Shown here piece by piece: positions 240 through 44,747 of a stretch of 64,000 nucleotides of DNA. Source of the stretch: Macrostomum lignano (Eukaryota); contig NIVC01001165.1 of NCBI GenBank assembly GCA_002269645.1, forward strand, positions 1 through 64,000, written 5' to 3'. Numbering within the stretch: position 1 is the stretch's first letter; every line of letters starts with the position of its first letter. A model generated the notes under the pieces. The model was not told the origin of the DNA, did not search any database, and saw only the letters and a list, made by a program, of their open reading frames with translations. Both the position numbers and the translations under genes were made by a program.

Positions 240-1288
240 TGAAGTACTGTGTCTTGCTGCTTCCAATCAGTTGCGAGAGCTGGCCCACCTTGAGCTCCCC
301 TGGGAAGTCTCCAGGTTGATCTAGTAGCGTCGGTAGTGCTGCACCAGCTTCGCAGAGTCGCAGCCTTCGGTGAGGTGCTGAGCTCGTAGAAGCAAATAAC
401 TAAGACGAGAGAAAGAGACTCGCACTCCGTGCAGATTTAGCAGTCTCGCGCAGAGGTGCCCCCCGTCAGCAGTCCCCGCCGGGCTGTGCGGGGCGAGAGC
501 GAAAGTGCTAGCCGGGCGATCCGAGCTGGCCTGCTAGCTGATAGCAGGAACAATCAGAGGCAGTCACGCGCAAAGTCGGGAGCTTGGAGTTCACTTGAAG
601 CGCAAACTTGGCACACAAACTTAGAGTTCGCTAGAAACGAAAACGGGAACGCGGAAAACGCTAGAAACGGTAGGAACGGAAGGAACGAAAGGAAACGCAA
701 GGAAAACGCGCTTGTCTGAGCCAAGCCAGGAGAGGGGCTGCATTTATAGGAGGATCGATTGCACCATAGCACGAAAGGCCCCCGCTGAGAGTCATAAGTG
801 ACTCTGTTGCTATTTTTAGCAACAAACAAGCGGGCCCTGCCTCAGAGGAGGCAAGGGGGGGTCCGGGCGCACGTGATCTCCCCATAAACACGAGCCCAGC
901 GTACAATGATGAAATCATTGCACTTTGGACTAAAGAAGGAAGAGGGCCTTGTCATGTGACTGACTCACATGACAAGGGGAAAAGGCCCACAAGTGAAGGC
1001 ACTCGTGACCGTGGGACCGGAAAACAGGAAGGCACTCCAAATTTGGAGATGCCTGACAGAGAACGAAACAGAGGCAGGCCAGACCAAGCTGTCTGGGCAC
1101 TGCAAAAAGGGAAAGCGAGACAAAAGGGGCAAACGAGGACAAACAGACAGACAGACAAACGGGCAGAGGACAGGCCAGGGACAGGCGGGAGGGACAGGCA
1201 ACTGCCCAGCGGCAGACAGAAACCTGGGGAGAAGGCGAGGGCAACAGCTGACTAGTGCGGCGCCTAACTAAACTAGCGACTCACTACA
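240..1288 (-). repeat. 3' LTR of element A
   Basis: Near-identical to 9235-10293 (scattered 1-bp indels and substitutions); sense strand begins TGTAGT and ends ACTTCA; TATA-like TATAAA at 743-748. Confidence 0.95.
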
Positions 1289-1300
1289 CTCTCCCCGTTC
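1289..1300 (-). promoter_or_regulatory. Polypurine tract of element A
   Basis: Sense GAACGGGGAGAG directly before the TG of the 3' LTR. Confidence 0.85.
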
Positions 1301-1689
1301 AAATAAAGAGGCGGAGTGAAGCGGCGCGCGCTTTATTTAAAACAAAGTAAACGTGAATTTACTGACAAAAGAAAACACACAAAATTTCAAATGCGCTCGT
1401 GAAATTGCGCGACTGGCCAGGTCGTAAAGATAGTGGCCTGATACCGCGGGGCGCCAACCCGCTAATAGCCTGCGCCTAACTATTCCTCGTGCTCCAGCCC
1501 GCAAAATTAGTGCTCGAATTTGGTGTGGGGGCGCCGGCCCACCCTAGAAATGGCGCCTAAATATTGCGCGGGCGATACCTGAATACACAAGCCAACCGGC
1601 TTAAAATTCCTGCATAAGGGCGCTTAACTAGCGCGGCAAACGGGGCAACTTCATTGTCAACAGGGCGTACATCAGCGTACGGCCGCCAA

Positions 1690-2791
1690 TCAGTCAAAAT
1701 AGCACAGACGCGGAGTCATCAAGAGCATCGGCAGGTCTTCTTCCCCGCCGCCCATGAATCGGGCAACGCGGACGGCCGCCAGGTGGAGAGCGTACGGCCG
1801 GTTCGGCCGCTCCAGGTCGGGGCCGGCCAGGCCGACCGCCTCCGCGAATAACCGGCTCCTCCCTCGGCCGTGGTTTGACGGAGCTCCGCCCAGATCGGGC
1901 CACCGAGGTCAACGATTTCTCCGCCTTGCCGAGCCGCTCTGACGAGTACAGCGCTTATCAGGTGGGCGCCGGCAGCGATGACGGTAGCTCGGTATTCCGG
2001 TATTGGCGACTCCGTTTGAGTGCCGGTATCGAGCGTTTCCGCCGGACGTTCGGGCGATGGTGGCGGGGCCCTGGGCAGGGTGCGGCGCAGCGACGCGGCC
2101 AGGTCGGTCCAAACAGCTGAGGAGCATGCGGCCGCTCCCTGAGTGTCATCGGTCCAAGACATCGGAGACGGGGCCGCGTCGGGATGCCTGGCGTCGTCGA
2201 GATCCCCTCCGCGTTCATCTGTTCCGCCGGGCCTGCCGTGGTGCTCCGACCCGACTCGCTCACGGGCCGCCGGCCGAGCCCCGTCGATGTCTGGAAGGGA
2301 ATTGCGGACTTGGAGGCGGATGTCCGCCAAGCCCGCATCACCTGCTGTTCCAGCTGCACGTAAGCCAAAGCGGCCGCGATCCGGTCGACCATGAGTGTCC
2401 GCGCAGTCGCGTCTGGCGATGGCGAGTCGCGCGTGAGGTCGATGACTTCGGCGAGTGTCGTTGACCCCGACGGGGTGTTGAGCTGCATGGCTCTCCAGAA
2501 CGGGCGAAGGGCTTCGCCTGGGTGCCGATGTTCGGAGTGGCCTCCCATTCCGCCTCTGGGGCTCGGGAGACGGCGTGCGACGGTGAGGGCGCCGATCAAC
2601 CTGGCGCGTCGGCCTCGCCGAGCCGTTGCCTTCAGCCCTGAGTCTCCGGTTAATTGTCTCCAGCGGGCGCCGCGGGATCCCCATGGTCTCTGGCGAGACC
2701 GGGTACCAGGTCGGCGCCGGCTACGGCTAGGCCGCCCTTGCTCCGCATCGGACGAGGAGCTTGAGCTCACGTGGAGCGGACGCTTGTGCAT
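1690..2791 (-). CDS. Putative accessory ORF3 of element A (non-env, unknown function), reconstructed across two frameshifts
   Basis: GC-rich coding-like sequence between IN and the PPT. ATG at 2791 follows a 3'-splice-like CCTTGCAG (AG at 2800-2799). The most protein-like path is MHKRPLHVSSSSSSD...EVIDLT...DRIAAALAYVQLEQ, then DAGLADIRLQ...IWAELRQ, then LFAEAVGLAG...PRLCYFD* (stop at 1692-1690). Confidence 0.55.
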
Positions 2792-2849
2792 TTCTGCGCT
2801 GCAAGGTTTTAATTTGTGCACACGCATGCGGGCGGTGCGACTAACGTAC

Positions 2850-5800
2850 GTTTTGGCCCTAGGATCGCTAATCAGAAGCCTCTCCGGCGGCCTCCGATCC
2901 CTAACTGGCCTACCTACCACTACTGGTATGGGAGACGCTTCCACCTGAGTGGTGCAAGGAGGTGGCGCAGGAGACTGCACCGCCGAAAAAGGTTCGGGAA
3001 GGGGGACGCATGGACAGGTGAAAAAGAAGCAGCAGGTGCAGACGCATTCAAACCAGGCACACCATCATGGCGATCACCATACGGCAGTGGCTCACGCCGA
3101 AATGCACTTGCCTGGTTCGCTGGTGTCGTGACCGGTCCACCTCCTGGCTGCACATCCGGGATCGCCAACGGCCGGAAGCGCCACCGGAAGGCCGGCCATG
3201 CGTCATCGTCATCATCATCATCAGGATCGTCCTCCGGATCGGTGTCAGGGTCGCGGGTCCTGCACCGTCCGGGGCATCAGTCAACCTGCAGCGCTTCTTG
3301 GCCTGGTCGACTTCTGGATCCGAAGTCAGCTGGTAGTCGGCATCAGGGACGAGTAGCAGATTCCGGCGATGGACTACTAGCTCGTCGCGCCTGGCCCGCG
3401 GGTTTGGCACTCTACGGCGAATCTTGTAGACGACCTCGCCCTTGGGTTCGACTACCTCGTACAGCGCTTTGCGAGGTCGATGGAACTTCGCCGCTTCATC
3501 CGGTTCGAGCACCGGGTTGTTGAGGAAAACCAGGTCACCAGGTTGGAGCTTCTTGGCAGCGGGCAGGTTCGAATAGTGCTCGTCGCGCAGTTGCTGATGC
3601 AGATGCAGGCGTTCTTTAGCTAGCTCAGTCGCTTCGTCTAAACGGCGCTGGAAGTCCTTGACATAGTCAGGCAGATTGGCATACTCCGGCAGCTTCTTGA
3701 TCGCGTTGTCGATTGGTAGTCGAAAGTCTCGACCAAACACCAGGTAGTGAGGCGTGAAACCTGTCACCGGTGTACACTAGAGCGGAGCGCCATCAAGCAG
3801 GCTGGGAGGAAGGTGTCCCAGTCGTTATGGTTGCGCTCGAGGAGGCAGGTGAGGACACTCTTCAGCTGCTTGTTGAGGTTCTCGACTTGCCCATTAGAAG
3901 CTGGGTTGTACGGTGTTGTCGTCGTATGCCGGATGCCAAACAGGTCGCAGAACTTCTTGAAAGCTGAGCCAGTGAAATTGGTTCCTTGATCAGTGTGTAT
4001 CCAGCATGGTACACCAAAGTCAGGGATCAAGCGCTCCTGCAGGATCTTGATGACCGTCTTGGCTTTCTGGTTCCTCATCGGATAGGCGAACGGGTACTTC
4101 GACGTCGCGTCGCATAGCGTCAAGATGTAGCGGTTCCCGCTCTTGCTCTTCTGGGCATAGGGCCTACTACATCGCAATGTACTCTTCCCAGGACTTCGCA
4201 CACAGGGAAGCTCTGTACAGGTACTCGGTCTCGTCTTCGGGATTTACTTTCAAGACAGGCGCGGCACTTACTGATAAAGTTCTCGGTGACACGGGCTAAT
4301 CCGGGCCTCCAGAATCGTTCACGTAGCCGCTTCAACGTCTTCGTCTGGCCGAGGTGTCCACACAGTGGCGAACTGTGGAGCTCCTGGAGCACCTGGGCAT
4401 CTAGAGCTTCGGGCAGGACAACCTTCGGGGCTGCTGGCCATCAGTCAGATCGATCATCAGCAGGCCGTTGTCCTCTCGCAGATTATCATAATATCCGAGC
4501 AGATTCCGCTGCTCCTTCGTCAGTCGCAACCGGGCGTCGAACTCAGGCTTCGGGCTTTGTTCTCGACCAAGTTGAGCACGTAGCTGATTGCTCGGTCGGC
4601 GCGCTGCGCGTCGACAAACTGTTGCCGCGTCATCGGCAACCTCATAAAATCAGTGAGCACTGCGCGGCATGGCTGAGGGTTCCGGATTTCCTCAGTCTCC
4701 GCTTCTGTGGCTCGCAGTTGATCACACGACTCCGTCTTGTCGGCGTCAGGATTAGGTCGCTCCGAGGGACTTTGTCTCACAACGTCGGCGTACGATCGCT
4801 GATCTCGTTTCGAAGTTCTCATCGTCGCTCTCTTGACAGGAATTTCCGCAGCTGGAGCAGTGCACTTGCCTCCACTGCACAGCCCAGGCGACTCTTGGCT
4901 GTAGGGCGAGACGCAACACGTGAAGCACGCCTCGTCGCAGGCAGCCGTAGCCGTCGGCTCGATCATCGTCGTCATTGGGTGAGTCTTCTCCAGCACTGGG
5001 CGGTGTCGCAAAGGGGGACTCGACTTTCCGCACAGGCGATGAGCAGCTGTCTGTCGGCTCGGGGGACAGAGCGTTGACCTTGCAGCCGTCGCGAGAGTCT
5101 GGCCTCTGTCAACACGGCGAGAACTCTCAGCGCAAAACTCCGGGGAGTTGAACTTACATTGCTGGTCTGGATTCGCGTTGTGGGCTGTCATCAGAAGGGC
5201 TGCTTGTTCAGTGGCCTCTGAGTCGTGGTCCATGGGCGTCTCCAGATTCCGAGACCCGCAGTCTTGGACATCATCAAGGAGGTCTACGTCAGCAGTGGCC
5301 TCCGAGGGTTTGTCCGGGCGAATCTCCAAGTAACGGCAGTCGGCGTGGGCGTCGCTGCGGAGGGCTGAGGTGTCAGTGGCCTCCGGGTTGGTGTCCAAAC
5401 CGGTCTCCAGGCGTTGACTGCAGCGATGGTCGTCGTGCTGAAGGACTGCTGGCGCAGTGGCCTCCAGGTCTTCGGCCAGGGCAGTTTCGGCCTCCTTGTT
5501 GCGAGTGTGGACCTTCTTCGTGCGGGCTGCTCTCGCAGTGGCCTCACGTGTGGTGTCCAATTCCGGCTCCAGGCTGGTGTCATCACCGGGTCGGGCTGCA
5601 GAACCGGGGTGCTCAGCAGTCGGCCATGCTCGAAGTCAACCGGTGGTGTCTCCGGGCGTCTTGACAGGGCGTCAGCGTTGGCGTGGTCCTTGCCTTTGCG
5701 ATGGTGAAGCTGGAAGCGGAACTCGCTTAATCGCTCAATCCAACGGCCCAAGATGCCTGTGACCTGCGTCTGGTTCAGCAGCCACAGCAAGGCCCGATGG

Positions 5801-8047
5801 TCAGAACGAACTTCAAACTTCTTGCCGATTAAATAATGACGGAAATGTCGCATCGCGTCCACGATTGCAAGCAGCTCTTTCTTCGTGACCGTGTAGCGCT
5901 TCTCAGGATCACGAAGCTTCCGGCTAAAGAATGCAATTGGGCGCTCGACGCCGTCGGATTGCCGTTGTCCAAGACAAGCGCCTATGCGAATGTCTGAGGC
6001 ATCCGTGTCTAGGACAAACTTCACATTAGGATCTGAGTTAAACTCAGGCAGAGCGAGAACTTCAGTCGAACACAACTTCTTCTTCAACGTGTCGAACGCT
6101 ACCTGGTGCTCATCAGTCCAATGCTGCCGCAGGCTGCCGATGTCCTTTCGAGTCAGGGCATGTAGCGGCGCAGCAAATCCAGCGTAGCCGTTGACAAACT
6201 TGTGGTAGTAATTGGCGAGGCCTAGGAATTGTCTCAGTTGAGTAACGTGATTGGCACGGGCCAATCACGGATCTGCGCAATCTTGTCCTCACAGGTCTTC
6301 AGGCCGTCGGGAGTCACGACGTGGCCTAGATAATGCAGCTCCTTGAGGAACAAATGGCACTTCTTCGGCTTGACCTTGAGGTTGGCTGCGATAATCCGCT
6401 GGAGTACAGTCCGCAGGTTGTCCAGCTGCTCCTCGAAGGTCACAGAGTGCACCACGATGTCATCCATGTAGCCAAGCGCAGTCTTTGGCGTCAGGCCGTC
6501 CAGGAGCTTATTGATGCAACGCTGAAAGCTGCCTGGACTATCGTGGAGACCCATCGGTAGAACATTGAAACAGAATTGTCCGCGGTCAATCACAGAGAAC
6601 GCCGTCAGGTGCTGATCGCAGTCGCGCAGCGGGATCTGCCAGAATCCTTGAGCGAGATCCAAGCTAGAGTACCACTGGGCACCACGCAGCTTCGCGAAGG
6701 TCTCCTGAATGTGCGGCAGCGGGTACGGGTGGTACACACACTTGTCGTTGAGAGCTCTGAAGTCATGCACCAGCCTGATGTTGCCGTCCTTCTTGGGCAC
6801 TATCAGCATTGGCGAGTTGTAGCTAGAATAAGCCGGGCGAATGATGTGCTTCGCCAGCATCTCGTCTAGCAGGGCGTCTAGCTTGTCCTTCAGATGAGGC
6901 GGGATCCTGCGCGGTGGTAGCGCAACTGGTGTCCGATCCTTCAGGATGATCTCGTGGGTCACCAAGTGTGTCAGGCCAGCGTCTAGCAGATGCTTCGAGA
7001 AGGCTGCTTGACACTCAACTAGTAGATCTCGCACTCTCTGTCGTTGATCTTCGGACAGCTCGCTGTTGATCTCGACTTCCTCTAGCCAAGCTGTGCTGGA
7101 CTCTTCAGGGCTCCTTGGCAAATGTCGCACTTCAGGTTCCGGCGTCTCTTCCAGGTACATCAGGTCGGCAGTTCTAAGTGGTGTCGCAACCCAACGCGGA
7201 TGCCCGACTGCAGGAACACCTCGCAGTCAGCAGTGTTGACGACCTCGATGTAGCCTCGACCTTCAGGCATCGTCATCAGAGCTGGAGCTGCTTCCAGAGT
7301 GTTGCAGCTGGGGTGCAGTCTCGACTTCACCAGCTCGACGATTGATGGCGATCCTCGGTTCTCGGGGTGGCCGACATCCAACTGGACGGCCAACAGCGCT
7401 GAGCTTCTCGGCGGCAGAGTGCACTTCTCGGAGGTGTACACCCGGCATGATTGAAGCTCACGGCGCGAATAGCGAACGGGAATGCACGCGCCATTGTTGA
7501 ACTTTAACATTCCTTGCGCAAAGTCCAAGTTTTGGCAGTGTTCACGCATGAAATTAATACCAAGCAAATTTTCACAATCGGTGACCGTGACCAGGAATTC
7601 GGTGTCCGCGACGACATCACCAAACTCCACCGGGATGATCACCTTACACGCAAGGGGTAGCTGCGTACCGTCGTACATGGTCACGCAATCCGGGATAGCA
7701 TGCGATATGATACAACGAGGCATCCGACGTCTAACATTGGCCCAGGTCGACGCTCCAAGAAAGTTTTTCCGACTGCCGCTGTCTAGTAGGAAAGGGACTT
7801 CTCGGCCCGCCAATCGGCCGGTGACGTACGGATCAGCCTCACGCGCATGGATTTTTTTATCATCGGAGGTGTCCACGAAACCTCCGCACTCAGCCTCACT
7901 TACTGATGAGCGACTGTCGGACTGGGCATTGGCGTCTGCGCAGCCGACATCCTCTTCTTCTGGTGAGCGTTCGGAGTCTGCCAAGTAGCCGGGGCTTGGG
8001 CTCTGCGGAGGGCGTTGCCGTGGGCGCTCTCCGTCTCGCCGTTTCCC
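2850..8047 (-). CDS. pol: Pol of element A (PR-RT-RNase H-long linker-IN), broken by several frameshifts as assembled
   Basis: PR FLLDSGS (7160-8068); RT SPMLIVPKKDG, DLAQGFWQ, GYMDD (6234-7160); RNase H LDTDAS, KKELLAI, SDHRAL (5284-6264); IN HSSPLCGH...CRAC, HCDVVG, HTDQGTNF, SNGQVE (3764-4392); GPY/F-like tail and RPVRDRRPPERL at about 2880-2910. Confidence 0.92.
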
Positions 8048-9069
8048 TGGTTCTGGCGTAACGGGCACTGTGCATTGCGATGACCAGGCTGACCACAGCC
8101 ATAGCAGATCATGGCTTTCGCCGGCGGACTCGTTTTCTGCTGCTGGTCACGCTGCACCAGGTTGTCTAGCAGTCGCTGCTGTTTCTCTAGCAGATCAGTC
8201 AGAGCTAGGAGAGCTTGAGCGGTGGCGTCGGGCGTCGGGTCACCGTCGCGCTCCCCGTTCAGCATGCGAACCGGGGGTTGAGCAGAGCGCTGCGCCAGTT
8301 CCTTGGCGCCTTCCAGACGATGGAGTTCTCGAATAGCGGCCAGCAGATTGTTCGGGCGGACCCAATAGAGCCGCTCGCGCAGATCTGGTGTCGTCCTGAT
8401 GCCAGCTAGGAACTGATCAGCCAGCTCCCGCTCTCGATCCTCAGGGTGCATTCGAGGGTACGCTCGCTCTCCCAAGGTGCGCAGGGCATCAGCGTACTCT
8501 TCTGCTGACTCATTCTTGCCTTGCTGACGGCGCCTCAGCAGCTCTCGATATTCATCCGCGCCACCGTGGCGGGCGAATCTCTCGATCAGTCGCTGCCTGA
8601 CCTCCTCGTAGCCAGCATAGCGTGGGAGGTGCATACTGAGCAGAGCCGGGTAAGCAGTAGCCAGATCTAGACTCGCAACGAGGTGCTGCTTCATCTCGAT
8701 CGGGTCTTCAATACGCTCCATCTCGCAGCGTTGCTCGAACGCGGCGAGCCAGACATGGATGTCCTGGCTGGGCGTGTACTTTACAATCTTAACAGACTTG
8801 CTTACCGGCCGCTCCATCTGCTGCTGCAGAGCTGCCATCATCGTTCTCACATCCTGGGGCCTGATGTTCTGGCCGAGGTCGTCCAAACCTGGCAGAAGCT
8901 CGTCTGGCGGGTCTTCGGACACTTCGCTTCTCGCACTTCGCCGCGGCATCTGCTGACCAAGGTCGTTGACCGCTGCTGCTGCGGCAGCCGATGCTGCTGC
9001 AGGTCTCGAACTGCTGATGTGCTGATCCAGCCGGCTGCTGCACCGGCTCTCTTCTCTCTCGTTAAACAT
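7900..9069 (-). CDS. gag: Gag of element A (capsid plus CCHC zinc knuckle)
   Basis: 389-aa ORF with Gypsy capsid-like motifs (DIHVWLAAFE; QQGKNESAEEYADALRTL) and CYGCGQPGHRNAQC (CX2CX4HX4C). Confidence 0.92.
   Translation of the reverse strand: MFNEREESRCSSRLDQHISSSRPAAASAAAAAAVNDLGQQMPRRSARSEVSEDPPDELLPGLDDLGQNIRPQDVRTMMAALQQQMERPVSKSVKIVKYTPSQDIHVWLAAFEQRCEMERIEDPIEMKQHLVASLDLATAYPALLSMHLPRYAGYEEVRQRLIERFARHGGADEYRELLRRRQQGKNESAEEYADALRTLGERAYPRMHPEDRERELADQFLAGIRTTPDLRERLYWVRPNNLLAAIRELHRLEGAKELAQRSAQPPVRMLNGERDGDPTPDATAQALLALTDLLEKQQRLLDNLVQRDQQQKTSPPAKAMICYGCGQPGHRNAQCPLRQNQGNGETESAHGNALRRAQAPATWQTPNAHQKKRMSAAQTPMPSPTVAHQ
8006..8047 (-). promoter_or_regulatory. Predicted -1 ribosomal frameshift signal (G GGA AAC plus hairpin)
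   Basis: Heptamer at 8047-8041 is phased X_XXY_YYZ in the gag frame; the -1 frame is the protease ORF (PGKRRDGE...); after a 7-nt spacer comes the stem CGGAGAGCG/CGCCCTCCG (8033-8025 / 8014-8006). Confidence 0.8.
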
Positions 9070-9209
9070 TTCAAATTAGTAGAATAGCCGAATTCTTACT
9101 CGAAAGAGCGGTTGTCTTGGGTGTAGTAGTAGTCGAATCTTGACTTGTCGGATCCCAGATAGTCGTGTCGTTGACTCGTCGAATCCCAGATAGTCGTGTC
9201 GTTGACTCG

Positions 9210-9233
9210 TCGAATCCCACCGCTGAGTCACCA
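9210..9233 (-). promoter_or_regulatory. Primer binding site, tRNA-Leu-like
   Basis: Sense sequence TGGTGACTCAGCGGTGGGATTCGA, 1 nt from the LTR; complementary to a tRNA-Leu 3' end (recalled as ...TCGAATCCCACCGCTGCCACCA) apart from ACT in place of G. Confidence 0.8.
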
Positions 9234-9234
9234 A

Positions 9235-10293
9235 TGAAGTACTGGTGTCTTGCTGCTTCCCAATCAGTTGCGAGAGCTGCCCACCTTGAGCTCCCCTGGG
9301 AAGTCTCCAGGTTGATCTAGTAGCGTCGGTAGTGCTGCCACCAGCTTCGCAGAGTCGCAGCCTTCGGTGAGGTGCTGAGCTCGTAGAAGCAAATAACTAA
9401 GACGAGAGAAAGAGACTCGCACTCCGTGCAGATTTAGCAGCTCTCGCGCAGAGGTGCCCCCCGTCAGCAGTCCCCGCCGGGCCAGTGCGGGGCGAGAGCG
9501 AAAGTGCCAGCCCCGGGCGGTCCGAGCTGGCCTGCTAGCTGATAGCAGGAACAATCAGAGGCAGTCACGCGCAAAGTCGGGAGCTTGGAGTTCACTTGAA
9601 GCGCAAACTGGGCACACAAACTTAGAGTTCGCTAGAAACGAAAACGGGACGCGGAAAACGCTAGAAACGGTAGGAACGGAAGGAACGAAAGGAAACGCAA
9701 GGAAAACGCGCTTGCCTGAGCCAAGCCATGAGAGGGGCCGCATTTATAGGGAGGATCGATTGCACCATAGCACGAAAGGCCCCCGCTGAGAGTCATAAGT
9801 GACTCTGTTGCTATTTTTAGCAACAAACAAGCGGGCCCTGCCTCAGAGGAGGCAAAGGGGGGGTCCGGGCGCACGTGATCTCCCCATAAACACGAGCCCA
9901 GCGTACAATGATGAAATCATTGCACTTTGGACTAAAGAAGGAAGAGGGCCTTGTCATGTGACTGACTCACATGACAAGGGGAAAAGGCCCACAAGTGAAG
10001 GCACTCGTGACCGTGGGACCGGAAAACAGAAAGGCATTCCAAATTTGGAGATGCCAAACAGGGAACGAAACAGAGGCAGGCCAGACCAAGCTGTCTGGGC
10101 ACTGCAAAAAAGGGAAAACGAGACAAAAGGGGGCAAACGAGGACAAACAGACAGACAGACAAACGGGCAGAGGACAGGCCAGGGGACAGGCGGGAGGGAC
10201 AGGCAACTGCCCAGCGGCAGACAGAAACCTGGGGAGAAGGCGAGGGCAACAGCTGACTAGTGCGGCGCCTAACTAAACTAGCGACTCACTACA
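9235..10293 (-). repeat. 5' LTR of element A
   Basis: Direct repeat of 240-1288; followed on the sense strand by the PBS. Confidence 0.95.
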
Positions 10294-10604
10294 CTTAAAT
10301 TAAATGAATATTTGGTTGGCTAAATTTAGATTGCCGATTTTGAATGCCAGCTTGCTGAAATTGAATGCCACTTTGGTTGAAATTGAATGCAAAAAGGTGT
10401 ACTAGCTGCACGTGTATGTTATTTGTATGTCTGTAATGTATGCTTTTATGTATGTACCAGGCTCAAAGCAGCATTGTACGATGCATATACCCCTCGTACG
10501 TATGTTTTATGTACATGTATGTATACCCATGTAAATGCTGTGTACATTTTTGTTTCGATGTATGTATGAATGTATTTTTATGTATTCAGAGTCGTAAGAC
10601 TAGT

Positions 10605-11115: not shown

Positions 11116-16538
<5,423 letters not shown>

Positions 16539-17689
16539 TCTCTGCGCCGGAAACTGCGCCGCTGCAGTCTTGCTGAACTGTCAAGCAGCTCCTGCCTTTC
16601 ACGACACATTAATTTATTGCCTGCACTGCTACCATATAAAAGGTTATTCTTCAAGCACGGCGTTGAGGTGTGGGGGTGGGGAGGTTGGGGTCTGCAGCCC
16701 TACGTGAAATTGAGCTAGCTGTACGTTGATATTTGAATGTACATGCTTTTGACAAGCCCTACTGGTGTCTAACCGCCAAGCCAGCCCCCCCCCAGCAGCC
16801 GCTGTGCTGTACACTGATATGATAGCGTGCGCGAAAATTCGTATGGTGTAGAGGAAGCTACATATAGTGTTATTTTTCTGTCCAACTGCAATCGCTATTC
16901 TGATTTATAATAGCCGTGCCATGAAAAAGCAGCATGCACTGCACTGCTTTGCTTTCTATTAAAAAGGGGCACACGATGCGTGACAGTTATGGAATCTTAT
17001 GAATTATTGTCACAGATCATGCAGTGATCTGCTTAAAGTTCCTAACCTAAACCAAACCTAATTTCCTTTTGCTTTTGAACTAGTCATGATCACTTTTGTA
17101 GTTTTTTTAGTTGAGTTTCTTATTGAAGATGAAGTTTAAAGAAAAAAAGAATCAGTCCTGAAAGCCATGCAGCTATCAGGACGGCCTAAGATATCAGCAT
17201 CCCTTTTGAGCCTCCCTTAAGCCATAGCTGAATCCTAGTAGCTCTCCTTTAAGTTGATGGCTCAATCGCCTAAAATATGTTGTAAATTCCCCGCTTTGTC
17301 AGCCTTGTATAACTTGTATAACAGCCTTCTTGCGAAATTCTACATATGTACCTGTGCTATTTGTACACGTACTACTGTGGTAAATGTACATCTTTATACA
17401 AGTGCTGACTGTACATTCTGCAGCTGCCCCAGTCCTTGGCAGGCGCAAATACTGCATGGCCCTCGCAGGGTCAACCAAGGGATGTTACATGTAGATGCGT
17501 AGGTCAATTCTGGTTATTGTCTTTGTATAGATTTCGAGAAAGGCAGCACACCTTCCACAGACTACAATTTAACAAAAATTAGAGATAAACGTCACAATAA
17601 ATTTTAGGAATGCTACTTCGCTTTAGGAATGCAAAGAATAAGAATATAATTGCAAACATTTGCATTCTTTACAATTTATATTGTTGACG

Positions 17690-18610
17690 AATATTATGAC
17701 GAAAATATTTTATTTATTTTATTCACATGTTTCGCTGTAACTTTCAGCATCGTCAGGTGACAATATTTTGTAATAATTTGAAGGTAATAAAATGAAAGTA
17801 CGGGCCAGGAGTTTAAAATGAGGTTTAAGTAGCCGTAGAATAGTCAAAAAATTCTAAGAATAGAACTAGCCCCCCTTCCTGTCAGTTGTACATTCAGGGT
17901 ATGCTTTAACTGCTTGATGTACAGGGCTTCCAACACATTTAGTTTGTGGTGGTGTTGAATCCGATCAATAATTTTAAACTTTTTATCATGTTTGATGTCG
18001 GCACACGCGTTACACATTAGCAGATGGTCATGAATCGCGCTAGCCTTCTTGCGGTGTTCCTCGATCCTAGTGTACAGGTGTCGATCAGTCTTACCGATGT
18101 ACGATCTGGCTCTGCTCGCAGCAGGGCAAACAGATTGATAGACGACACCAGCACACATGGAGGGTAGTTTGCTTTTTAGGCTTGTCACAAAATTGGCCAC
18201 CTTTTGAGTAGTGAAGATAACATCAATGCGCGTATCGAGACAGTCACGGCAGATATCAGTCAGCTTTTTTTAAATTTAGTACTTGGCATTCCTATGTACG
18301 GAATACTGATGGTTGGTTTCCTTTCGGTAGAGTTAGAGTTAGTAACATTCTGTTCTTTGGTAACTTTCTTATTGATGAAGGCATTAATCTCTGAGTTGAT
18401 CAGGTCGTTTGGGTACTGGTTTTTGTCAGGATCTTTGATCTTAGTTAATTCCTGGTGTAGCTTAGACCAGTTGCTGCAAATGTTGTAGGCACGATGCAAC
18501 ATGCCTCGGATCAATTACTCAGCTTCCAGCTTTTCGGGCACAGCGCCTGGAAATTTAGCAGTGCACTCCAGTAAACGTAGGTTTTCTGTAGACCGTTCAC
18601 CAAACGTCAC
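17690..18610 (-). mobile_element. 5'-truncated Penelope-like retroelement (RT thumb/linker plus GIY-YIG endonuclease)
   Basis: VYRKPTFTG remnant at about 18570-18595; IRGMLHRAYNICS...YP (18260-18514); GVVYQ...SYIGKTDRHLYTRIEEH...LEALYIK...LN (17844-18200). Confidence 0.88.
17721..17765 (-). ncRNA. Minimal type I hammerhead ribozyme-like motif (degenerate at the cleavage site)
   Basis: CTGACGA-T-GCTG-AAAGTTA-CAGC-GAAAC-ATGT in the 3' UTR of the Penelope-like element; the cleavage triplet reads GUG as assembled. Confidence 0.6.
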
Positions 18611-22400: not shown

Positions 22401-23912
22401 TTTTTAGTGAAAGTCAATAATTGTAAAATACTTTTGCAGTGACCATTTTGTCTAAATCTAGCCATTTTGGCAAACAATTGTTGATATATTAATCTAACCT
22501 TTATTAGCAAAGAAGGAAGAGTTTTTTGTTGTTTTAGAAAAAAATCAAATTGAAAAGAGACAAAATTTAAAAAGACTATATTGTCATATGTTTTTTGTGG
22601 CAAATTTATTATTTGATTAGTAAACTTTGTTTTATTAGGTGCCATTTTGTTATAGTAGGTTTTCAAAGTACAATTTAGGAGCTGGAACTGAAAGACCCCA
22701 CCATCATTTATAGTCTATTGATTGCACTTTGCATTTACATAACATAGCTATTAGCTAAGTTGTAAGGTTTTTAATTTATAAACTGAAAAACTGAAAAGCA
22801 AGGTAGTCAATGAATAATTTTTTAAAAGCTACAGTTACCATAGTGATATATTTGCAATTATAATTTAATAAATAGCCTACTATTTTTGCCAAACTGGTCA
22901 TGTTCTTTTGCTAAAATGTACATCTATATGAACTAAAATTTCACTTTCACCAAAGTATCTTTTGCCAAAAATTCCTTTTTCAAAATGGGCCACACCTGAT
23001 TATAAAATGGCAAATGGCAAAATGACTAAGAACCCTTAAGCTGACAATAATTTATTCTTATAGAGGAATAAGAATCCTTTTAGGCAAGCTATTGATATAT
23101 TTTATATATTAAGTTTTTGTATTAGCTCTATATTATTTGTTATATTTTATGGTTTAATAATTAAATATAATGGATAACTAATAATTAGTAGATATGTAAT
23201 TTTATGGAAATTATTTAAAATGTAGAAGCCGATAAACACTTTATATGCTATACTATATACTATATATAATGCCAATAAAAACCTTAATATTTGCTAGGAT
23301 TTTTTAATAAAACTCTGTCTTGGTATACTAAGGCTAAAGTGTCTAAAGGAGAAAAGAAGATTGGCTTTATCAGGCATGCCAACAGATATACTTTTGCATT
23401 TTGTCTAATATACATAACAAAACCATTTAGACCACCTACTGCAGTTATTTCTTGGCTATAATAGTAATGAAAGTATTAAAAAACATATTCTAAAAGCAAG
23501 TCATGTCAGACTAGTTTAGTTAATTAGTTACTTAGTGAGTAAGCTAGTTAGTTACTAGCAATCTATACTCTTATTGGGGAGCAAACAAAAAAGGAATTAA
23601 TATTTTATAGTAGTTATCTGGCCTTATAGTACTTAAAAACTTAAGAGCCTCCTTTGCTTTTGCTCCTAGTGCAATTTTAAAAATAAGAAGAAATAAAAAA
23701 GTGTAGTAATTTCCCAGTTGTGTCTAAAACAAGTTTATATTTGGTTTTAATAGTGTGGGTTCACATTCCTAAACTGCTATTCCAATTAGTAAATGTATAC
23801 ATAGGGGAATGCTTATTTCTTAGTTTCGACATGTTGCATATTTTTTTACTACAAATTATGTTGGTTGGTCATGCAATGTTGTAAAGTCTCAACCATTCAC
23901 CCCCACACAAAG

Positions 23913-44747
<20,835 letters not shown>

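What the first reader, a model, noticed from the sequence alone, without database searches (positions are those of the whole stretch)
1690..2800. Non-env accessory ORF3 in a Gypsy element, with its own splice acceptor and a PIAS-type SUMO-interacting motif
Seen: about 1.1 kb of coding-like sense sequence between integrase and the PPT; CCTTGCAG 8 nt before an ATG (2791); a basic/Ser-rich N-terminus; EVIDLTRDSPSP at 2449-2432 onward; a helical-looking C-terminal ~110 aa; no signal peptide or TM segment. Known: errantivirus env genes are expressed from spliced subgenomic RNA, and V-I-D-L-T followed by acidic/Ser residues is the PIAS-type SIM; SUMO is used in transposon silencing. Inference: ORF3 is a spliced, nuclear accessory protein, possibly an anti-silencing factor. 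The protein is rebuilt across two frameshifts, so its exact sequence is uncertain.
Basis: partly seen in the sequence, partly recalled or inferred. Interest (0 to 1): 0.75.

Follow-up and report, generated by a model that had tools for sequence, protein, structure and literature searches.

The report
Flatworm retrotransposon's orphan SUMO-motif protein
A young jumping gene of the flatworm Macrostomum lignano very likely encodes, where retroviruses keep their envelope gene, an extra protein with no detected relatives and a SUMO-binding-type motif; it likely runs on from the integrase and may also be made alone from a leader-spliced RNA, and it would act in the nucleus to help the element's own RNA.

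Summary
It lies in a young, complete Ty3/Gypsy element of Macrostomum lignano. Contigs of four runs show five one-letter differences in the ORF, not two. They put ATG 2791 in phase with TGA 1692 (369 codons). Read with X at the breaks, the frame is stop-free and outscores 400 of 400 shuffles, so it is very likely coding. It is not Env and has no detected homologue. VIDLT is rare by chance (2 of 20,000 shuffles) and probably in frame (0.26-0.98 by model). New: the motif that usually ends Pol lies in the ATG's frame with no stop between, so ORF3 is probably continuous with Pol, as in Cer1/CERV. TTGCAG matches the host's top spliced-leader trans-splice motif, and a GTAAGT donor at the gag stop would give an in-frame Gag fusion. 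No splice junction was seen, one putative-RNA contig crosses the acceptor unbroken, conservation could not be tested, and anti-silencing is untested. Extra non-Env ORFs in this slot are known and common in relatives. Verdict: new variant of a known kind.

The parts
9235..10293 (-). 5' LTR (TG...CA), TATAAA at 9748; target-site copy TAAG at 10297-10294
   Evidence: 13 substitutions and 14 gap letters against the 3' LTR, 12 of the 14 next to the same letter
9094..9099 (-). candidate splice donor GTAAGA just upstream of the gag ATG (leader route to ORF3 alone)
   Evidence: use not shown
7900..9069 (-). gag with one CCHC knuckle; GGGAAAC at 8047-8041 in the gag/pol overlap (likely -1 slippery site, recalled)
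   Evidence: no gaps in contigs over 7932-8836
7898..7903 (-). consensus donor GTAAGT overlapping the gag stop; phase 2, in frame with ORF3 if joined to 2798
   Evidence: use not shown
2876..8146 (-). pol: PR, RT, RNase H, long spacer, integrase; broken in the window by one-letter differences from the read contigs
2876..2911 (-). RPVRDRRPPERL, the R-[SP]-x-R-x4-P-x-[RKYN]-[YLF] motif found near the end of Pol in relatives; same frame as ATG 2791, no stop in the 28 codons between
   Evidence: motif in 10 of 35 relatives' integrase tails, in 12 of 20,000 shuffles
2799..2806 (-). candidate 3' splice or trans-splice acceptor CCTTGCAG behind an AT-rich patch
   Evidence: 10 of 15 upstream letters A/T, highest of 19 such hexamers; host motif in PMC8629364
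1690..2791 (-). ORF3, 368 residues if open; broken at five places in the window (four in 2295-2799, one in 1911-1761)
2500..2791 (-). basic, Ser/Pro-rich, likely disordered N-terminal part; exact frame uncertain
2414..2449 (-). EVIDLTRDSPSP, PIAS-type SIM core with acidic and Ser flanks
2342..2395 (-). helix-like segment after the SIM, same frame (by eye; not folded in this frame)
1693..2003 (-). predicted helical C-terminal region, split over two window frames; no family or fold assigned
1332..1337 (-). AATAAA upstream of the polypurine tract; the only AATAAA on the element's sense strand
1289..1296 (-). polypurine tract
240..1288 (-). 3' LTR; target-site copy TAAG at 239-236

Best explanation
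The stretch is very likely a real, non-envelope protein-coding ORF of about 368 residues in a young Macrostomum lignano Ty3/Gypsy element; it is likely in frame with Pol, is likely also made alone from an RNA processed at TTGCAG 2799 (spliced-leader trans-splicing being the likeliest route), and would work as a nuclear regulator that docks on SUMO-modified complexes through VIDLT to favour the element's own RNA. Steps and odds: coding 0.9 (computed); not Env 0.95 (computed); VIDLT in frame 0.8 (computed, model-dependent); continuous with Pol 0.75 (inferred from contig gap counts and a motif); acceptor used 0.5, and by the spliced leader if used 0.55 (inferred); nuclear, SUMO-binding regulator of the element's transcription or RNA export (inferred by analogy with Cer1 CERV; untested).
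For: Coding: five extra single letters in contigs of 4 of 4 runs put ATG and TGA in phase, 1102+5 = 369 codons. Under those gap limits a stop-free path exists; 43 and 45 of 400 shuffles have any open path and 0 of 400 reach its score (codon 21.4 against a best 16.1; amino acid 16.2 against 1.1). The window's breaks look like sequencing error: 12 of 14 LTR-LTR gap letters sit next to the same letter. Not Env. SIM: VIDLT is the PIAS1 SIM (PMC4907222 passages); chance 2 of 20,000; in-frame probability 0.85-0.98 by an amino-acid model. Pol run-on: contigs show four extra letters in 3124-3528 and one in 2806-3132; codon model 0.91 for run-on; end motif in the ATG's frame; Pol runs 47 and 174 residues past the motif in L012 and L026, and L014 has an 800-residue tail. 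Trans-splicing: top host trans-acceptor motif [T/C]TNCAG, leader ends in ATG (PMC8629364 passages); one putative-RNA contig (X10) begins exactly at 2799, where a partner exon ending in G but not AG would branch in. Precedent: Cer1's post-integrase ORF is in the polyprotein frame, is expressed from a spliced RNA found with and without SL1, and encodes a nuclear export factor.
Against: No junction to 2798 among the 15 of 27 joints shown; X5 has one contig across 1300-3132 and X4 one through 2810, so 2 of 3 putative-RNA runs show no branch; ORF3 depth is not above the upstream part in any putative-RNA run; the runs are only guessed to be RNA and may hold DNA. The X10 end can also come from a variant 30 letters inside, and DNA contigs break nearby at 2810. 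The hexamer occurs 19 times. A nucleotide codon model gives only 0.26-0.41 for VIDLT in frame. Total stops in three frames are not depleted (17 against 18.2 +/- 3.3). The exact break places were among the 33 hidden rows, so an open frame in the population is inferred; 12% of random placements are open. None of 13 extra ORFs and none of 35 integrase tails of relatives holds the SIM pattern. Nothing here tests location, binding or function.
Confidence: 0.4

Rival explanations
1. ORF3 is only a long C-terminal extension of integrase within Gag-Pol, in the place where chromoviruses carry a chromodomain (recalled), and VIDLT would steer integration to SUMO-rich chromatin; the acceptor is incidental.
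For: Run-on frame; long integrase tails in L008, L012, L014, L026; no junction seen and one contig unbroken across the acceptor.
Against: The most AT-rich acceptor context of 19 sits 7 letters before an in-frame ATG with a purine at -3; the X10 contig end at 2799; in 8 of 10 relatives with the motif Pol stops within 2-15 residues.
Confidence: 0.22
2. Cis-splicing supplies ORF3, either alone from the leader donor at 9099 (errantivirus-like, recalled) or as a Gag-ORF3 fusion from the GTAAGT donor at the gag stop (CERV-like).
For: Both donors match GT[G/A]AG, the host's donor motif; donor 7903 is in phase with ORF3; no ATG lies between 9729 and gag.
Against: Both exons end in A and would branch at 2798, not 2799; contigs end at 7932-7936, not 7904; no such joint is among those shown. 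The one G-ending donor, 8805, is out of frame.
Confidence: 0.15
3. The ORF is coding, but VIDLT is out of frame or incidental, and the protein does something unrelated to SUMO through its helical C-terminal part.
For: Codon model 0.26-0.41; motif picked after the fact among many possible short motifs; no SIM in relatives' extra ORFs; conservation untestable here.
Against: Amino-acid model 0.85-0.98; exact PIAS1 core with acidic/Ser flanks, 2 of 20,000 by chance.
Confidence: 0.16
4. A non-coding or decayed GC-rich 3' region whose long frames are by-products of 68% G+C.
For: A frame of 277 codons or more arises in 1329 of 20,000 shuffles and stops are not depleted; no homologue; a DNA contig joins 1805 to 3628, so copies lacking most of it exist.
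Against: 0 of 400 shuffles reach the constrained path's score under either model; phase match of ATG and TGA; 10 of 17 relatives with enough 3' sequence have a sense ORF of 120 residues or more after pol.
Confidence: 0.07

Closest known systems
CERV of C. elegans Cer1 (PMC10309623: Introduction and passages; PMC3315495: passages)
   Same: Ty3/Gypsy element; non-Env orphan ORF in the env position; in the polyprotein's frame; acceptor TTTCAG or TTGCAG; host with spliced-leader trans-splicing, and the 2.4-kb spliced RNA is found with and without SL1.
   Different: CERV is a five-exon Gag-sharing protein with a pseudo-GTPase domain and a proven export role; 'SUMO' does not occur in that paper's main text. 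Here there is an own ATG behind the acceptor, a SIM core, no detected homology, and no proven splicing or function.
Errantivirus env (PMC13524379: passages)
   Same: Position after integrase; a candidate leader donor upstream of gag and an acceptor before the ATG.
   Different: No hydrophobic leader in the ATG's frame, no strong membrane segment, no fusion-protein family; the paper reports flatworm errantiviruses with gB-type env in the order gag-env-pol.
Non-Env ORF3s of bdelloid rotifer LTR elements (PMC5408684: passages)
   Same: [quoted passage not shown]
   Different: Those are GDSL esterases, DEDDy nucleases, coiled-coil or membrane proteins; this one has no Pfam domain.
PIAS1 SUMO-interacting motif (PMC4907222: passages)
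   Same: Identical core VIDLT, preceded by E and followed by acidic and Ser residues.
   Different: No ligase domains around it; binding untested; frame probable, not certain.
Zinc-finger extra ORFs of metagenome Gypsy elements
   Same: Sense, non-membrane ORFs of about 200-300 residues just after pol, with basic and disordered parts.
   Different: They start with a C2H2-like finger, lack the SIM pattern, and show no sequence similarity to this ORF.

Membership tests
Ty3/Gypsy LTR retrotransposon | gag, then PR-RT-RNase H-integrase, between TG...CA LTRs with a target-site copy | tested here: met
Ty3/Gypsy clade (Gmr1/Osvaldo, Mdg3, Mag, CsRN1) | RT tree position against reference elements | not tested
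errantivirus env | signal peptide and C-terminal membrane anchor | tested here: not met
   highest 19-residue hydropathy 1.69 in 5000 of 5000 open X-reads, in an internal Ala/Val helix; hydrophobic share 0.10 over 2791-2705; no dedicated predictor run
errantivirus env | F-type or gB-type fusion domain | tested here: not met
   no Pfam family at E<=1 for any frame piece; no solved-structure sequence match for the two C-terminal pieces
errantivirus env | subgenomic RNA spliced from a leader donor | tested here: inconclusive
   donor candidate 9099; no joint among 15 of 27 shown
Cer1 CERV-type regulator | post-integrase ORF in the polyprotein's frame | tested here: met
   probable only (0.75):
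Cer1 CERV-type regulator | spliced or leader-spliced messenger | tested here: inconclusive
   motif match
Cer1 CERV-type regulator | homology, pseudo-GTPase domain | tested here: inconclusive
   no direct comparison with CERV was made; no relative among 1.84 billion representatives for 2342-1845; predicted all-helical at low confidence
Cer1 CERV-type regulator | nuclear, needed for export of genomic RNA | not testable with these tools
   bench work
PIAS-type SIM | core VIDLT with acidic/Ser flanks in a low-complexity region | tested here: met
PIAS-type SIM | in the translated frame | tested here: inconclusive
   0.26-0.41 against 0.85-0.98
PIAS-type SIM | conserved in homologues and binds SUMO | not testable with these tools
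   no homologues found; the contigs laid over ORF3 differ from the window by at most one substitution
bdelloid-type enzymatic ORF3 (GDSL, DEDDy) | catalytic domain match | tested here: not met
   no Pfam hit, whereas L053's extra ORF hits GDSL in the same scan type

The most novel reading that the evidence does not exclude
A flatworm Gypsy element uses the host's spliced-leader trans-splicing at an internal acceptor to cut a SUMO-reading nuclear protein out of its own Pol frame, so that one ORF serves both as an integrase extension and as a free counter-silencing or RNA-export factor: a SUMO-directed, trans-splicing-fed accessory gene, convergent with Cer1 CERV.
Probability: 0.17. Interest if true: 0.82.

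Novelty: new variant of a known kind. Interest (0 to 1): 0.52.

Why it matters
Non-Env ORFs in the env position are common and mostly unexplained; CERV is a rare case with a function. This one sits in a transgenic, RNAi-tractable flatworm, in a young element, and carries a specific, testable handle (a PIAS-identical SIM core) and a specific, testable RNA junction. If the SIM is real it would link a transposon protein directly to the SUMO layer that hosts use for transposon silencing (that use is recalled from Drosophila work, not checked here). If the leader junction is real, trans-splicing would be a way for an LTR element to express a downstream gene from an internal acceptor. In my searches (listings only) no listed title reported a SIM-bearing retrotransposon accessory protein; subscription journals are not covered.

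Tried and rejected
No whole genome is held, so sister copies, dN/dS and motif conservation could not be examined. No run is on record as RNA: 'no RNA holder listed', no evidence either way. Homologue searches were blank: 2720-1722 (8000 candidates), 1908-1693 among longer proteins (250 candidates), 2342-1845 in metagenome contigs (482 pattern matches, none confirmed) and in the Atlas. The two hits among 1.84 billion representatives are tandem-repeat proteins whose scores sum weak repeats: rejected. The SIM-bearing frame (2791-1961) was scanned only against Pfam and the 80 loci, not the large protein sets. The Atlas feature hit of 1860-1693 to aminoglycoside-phosphotransferase-like clusters (0.93, recognition 2176, 100 of 256 shared) is weak, has no Pfam or solved-structure support, and is not adopted. 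Fold search of that piece: best Z 4.4, no Z of 5 or more; the other model (pLDDT 47) was not searched. A by-eye likeness to L043's C-terminus gave E 0.75, and an X-read of the C-terminal half against 51 tails and ORFs gave no hit better than E 0.75. A first, narrower end-motif pattern matched 1 of 35 tails; I widened it after seeing those tails, so the 10 of 35 is fitted to them. The element has no canonical heat-shock element and its LTR differs from the one family whose alignment I saw in PMC12801592 (text parts 1-2 of 6, passages, supplement 1, part 1 of 8 of supplement 5; 'ORF', 'accessory' and 'splic' have 0 hits in its main text); the unseen parts may bear on family naming. The X4 contig end at 1313 is explained by sister variants converging near 1342, not by a poly(A) site. 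Earlier scan notes held nothing on this stretch.

Full report
Setting. The finding lies in a complete Ty3/Gypsy element on the minus strand: LTRs 10293-9235 and 1288-240 (TG...CA), target copy TAAG, gag, then PR, RT, RNase H and integrase. A protein named from Macrostomum lignano is 100% identical over 37% of the RT query, which gives the host. The LTRs differ by 13 substitutions and 14 gap letters, 12 of them next to the same letter: the insertion is young and the window carries one-letter errors of the long-read kind (inference).

The observation. No membrane segment stands out, and helices are predicted in the last ~110 residues at low to middling confidence. The count of frameshifts is wrong. 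I laid contigs of four runs (three guessed RNA, one guessed DNA; 4 of 24 listed) on 1300-10295. Over ORF3 they differ from the window by at most one substitution but by five extra single letters: four in 2295-2799 and one in 1761-2248. The exact places were among 33 rows not shown. One more lies in 1402-1750 and could touch the last 20 codons.

Is it coding? 1102+5 letters make 369 codons, so ATG 2791 and TGA 1692 are in phase. With five one-letter shifts confined to those intervals and X at each, a stop-free path exists; 43 and 45 of 400 shuffles have any open path and none reaches the observed score under a codon or an amino-acid model trained outside ORF3. The other-start, wrong-direction and antisense controls had no open path, partly by construction. 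Against this: total stops are not depleted (17 against 18.2), and only 12% of random placements leave the frame open, so openness in the population is inferred. I put coding at 0.9.

The motif. VIDLT is the PIAS1 SIM (PMC4907222, passages). It arises in 2 of 20,000 shuffles, the wider class in 111, though it was chosen after the fact. Whether it is in the true frame depends on where the four upstream breaks fall: 0.34 for uniform placement, 0.26-0.41 with a nucleotide model, 0.85-0.98 with an amino-acid model. With the motif's own rarity I put it at 0.8. Conservation could not be tested: no homologue was found and no genome is held. DNA contigs over ORF3 have depth 98-103 against 282-429 for several gag/pol contigs; the tool warns that this is no copy number, but it fits sister families with another or no 3' region, as do the loose ends at 1340 and a 1805-3628 joint.

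ORF3 is probably not separate from Pol. The ATG's frame is open from 3064 and holds RPVRDRRPPERL at 2911-2876. A motif of this form lies in 10 of 35 integrase tails of relatives, in 8 of them 2-15 residues before the stop, and in 12 of 20,000 shuffles (the pattern was widened after seeing those tails). The contigs show four extra letters in 3124-3528 and a single one in 2806-3132; that single one is needed to bring Pol into the motif's frame, and a codon model prefers this at 0.91. No stop then lies before ATG 2791. The escapes are a stop hidden by one of two unseen substitutions, or Pol ending at 2922 with the motif out of frame; the 3124-3528 contigs may also belong to sister copies. Relatives show both layouts: separate ORFs after pol in 10 of 17 loci with 1.2 kb or more of 3' sequence (L010/L011 and L039/L053 are pairs of one family, L051 looks like a LINE piece, L080 is doubtful), and run-on tails in L012, L026 and L014.

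How could it be made alone? The host trans-splices 30% of its genes; its 35-letter leader ends in ATG and the top trans-acceptor motif is [T/C]TNCAG (PMC8629364, passages), which TTGCAG fits. The hexamer occurs 19 times in the internal region, but this one has the most AT-rich upstream (10 of 15) and an in-frame ATG 7 letters on. The leader's own ATG would be out of frame, so the ORF's ATG would have to be reached by leaky scanning (inference). Two cis routes exist: a donor at 9099 before gag, and GTAAGT on the gag stop, which is in phase with ORF3. The read evidence is thin. One contig in X10 begins exactly at 2799, the branch expected for a partner ending in G but not AG (the leader, or the out-of-frame donor 8805) and not for the two A-ending donors; a variant 30 letters inside explains it too. 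X5 and X4 cross the site without a branch, no junction is among 15 of 27 joints shown, and depth does not rise over ORF3. I put use of the acceptor at 0.5.

Mechanism. Anatomy: basic, Ser/Pro-rich N-terminal part, SIM core, a helix-like segment, an acidic Pro-rich linker, and a helical end. That fits a nuclear scaffold rather than an enzyme or a fusogen (inference). The nearest worked-out case is Cer1: an orphan ORF in the env position, in the polyprotein's frame, expressed from a spliced RNA found with and without SL1, whose product CERV is nuclear and needed to export genomic RNA (PMC10309623, Introduction and passages; PMC3315495, passages). I therefore favour a separately made nuclear regulator that would use VIDLT to reach SUMO-modified chromatin or RNA-protein complexes (0.4), ahead of a pure integrase-targeting tail (0.22), a SUMO-unrelated role (0.16), cis-spliced forms (0.15) and non-coding DNA (0.07). 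Anti-silencing, export and targeting cannot be told apart from sequence.

Known or new. It works like CERV in layout, is not an env, and is not shown to be a CERV homologue. Non-Env ORFs in this slot are known from bdelloids (PMC5408684, passages) and were common among the 80 relatives fetched, several with zinc fingers, one family with GDSL. PMC13524379 and PMC12582326 were seen as passages. What is new is an orphan protein, a PIAS-identical SIM core absent from 13 of 13 extra ORFs of relatives, and a possible trans-splice route. All three functional steps are untested, so the score is 0.52; the bold case has probability 0.17 and would deserve 0.82.

Noticed in passing
window 5635-4520 (-): About 370 codons of coding-like spacer between RNase H and integrase; about 1500 letters from RNase H to the integrase core against 481-1399 in relatives. 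A named host protein runs into it in frame. No credible Pfam family.
   Followed up: partly
window 8047-8041 (-): GGGAAAC in the gag/pol overlap, with no gaps in contigs there: likely a programmed -1 frameshift (site type recalled).
   Followed up: partly
window 7903-7898 (-): Consensus donor GTAAGT overlaps the gag stop codon and is in phase with ORF3: a possible Gag-ORF3 fusion.
   Followed up: partly
window 1337-1332 (-): The only AATAAA of the sense strand lies upstream of the polypurine tract, outside the LTR; sister variants converge on the window's sequence at about 1340.
   Followed up: partly
window 1805-3628: A DNA contig joins these places: a derivative lacking the integrase tail and most of ORF3.
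   Followed up: no
window 2030-2010 (-): DTGTQTE just before the C-terminal helices resembles a dynein light chain LC8 anchor (recalled; chance not computed). L011's extra ORF has NSTQT.
   Followed up: no
window 947-977 and its copy in the 5' LTR: A 31-letter near-perfect palindrome inside the LTR.
   Followed up: no
L011:7845-8678, L010:2746, L043:3518-4129, L035:6284-7195, L032 about 7770: Gypsy relatives from metagenomes carry 200-300-residue extra ORFs with an N-terminal C2H2-like finger right after pol; L014 has a similar-looking finger inside an 800-residue integrase tail (by eye). Possibly a widespread, little-described class of nuclear accessory ORFs.
   Followed up: partly
L039:5172, L053:7295-7780: GDSL-like extra ORF after a pol that ends in a chromodomain-like tail (tail by eye; GDSL), as in bdelloid Vesta elements.
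   Followed up: partly
window 11350-14650 (+): A second, unrelated, broken Gypsy-type gag-pol right beside the first element.
   Followed up: no
window 15250-16600 (-), 17844-18269 (-), 23800-25200 (+): By eye: exons of a MAP-kinase-like gene, a GIY-YIG-like (Penelope-type) frame, and exons of probable membrane-protein genes; from about 25000 on, mostly tandem repeats.
   Followed up: no
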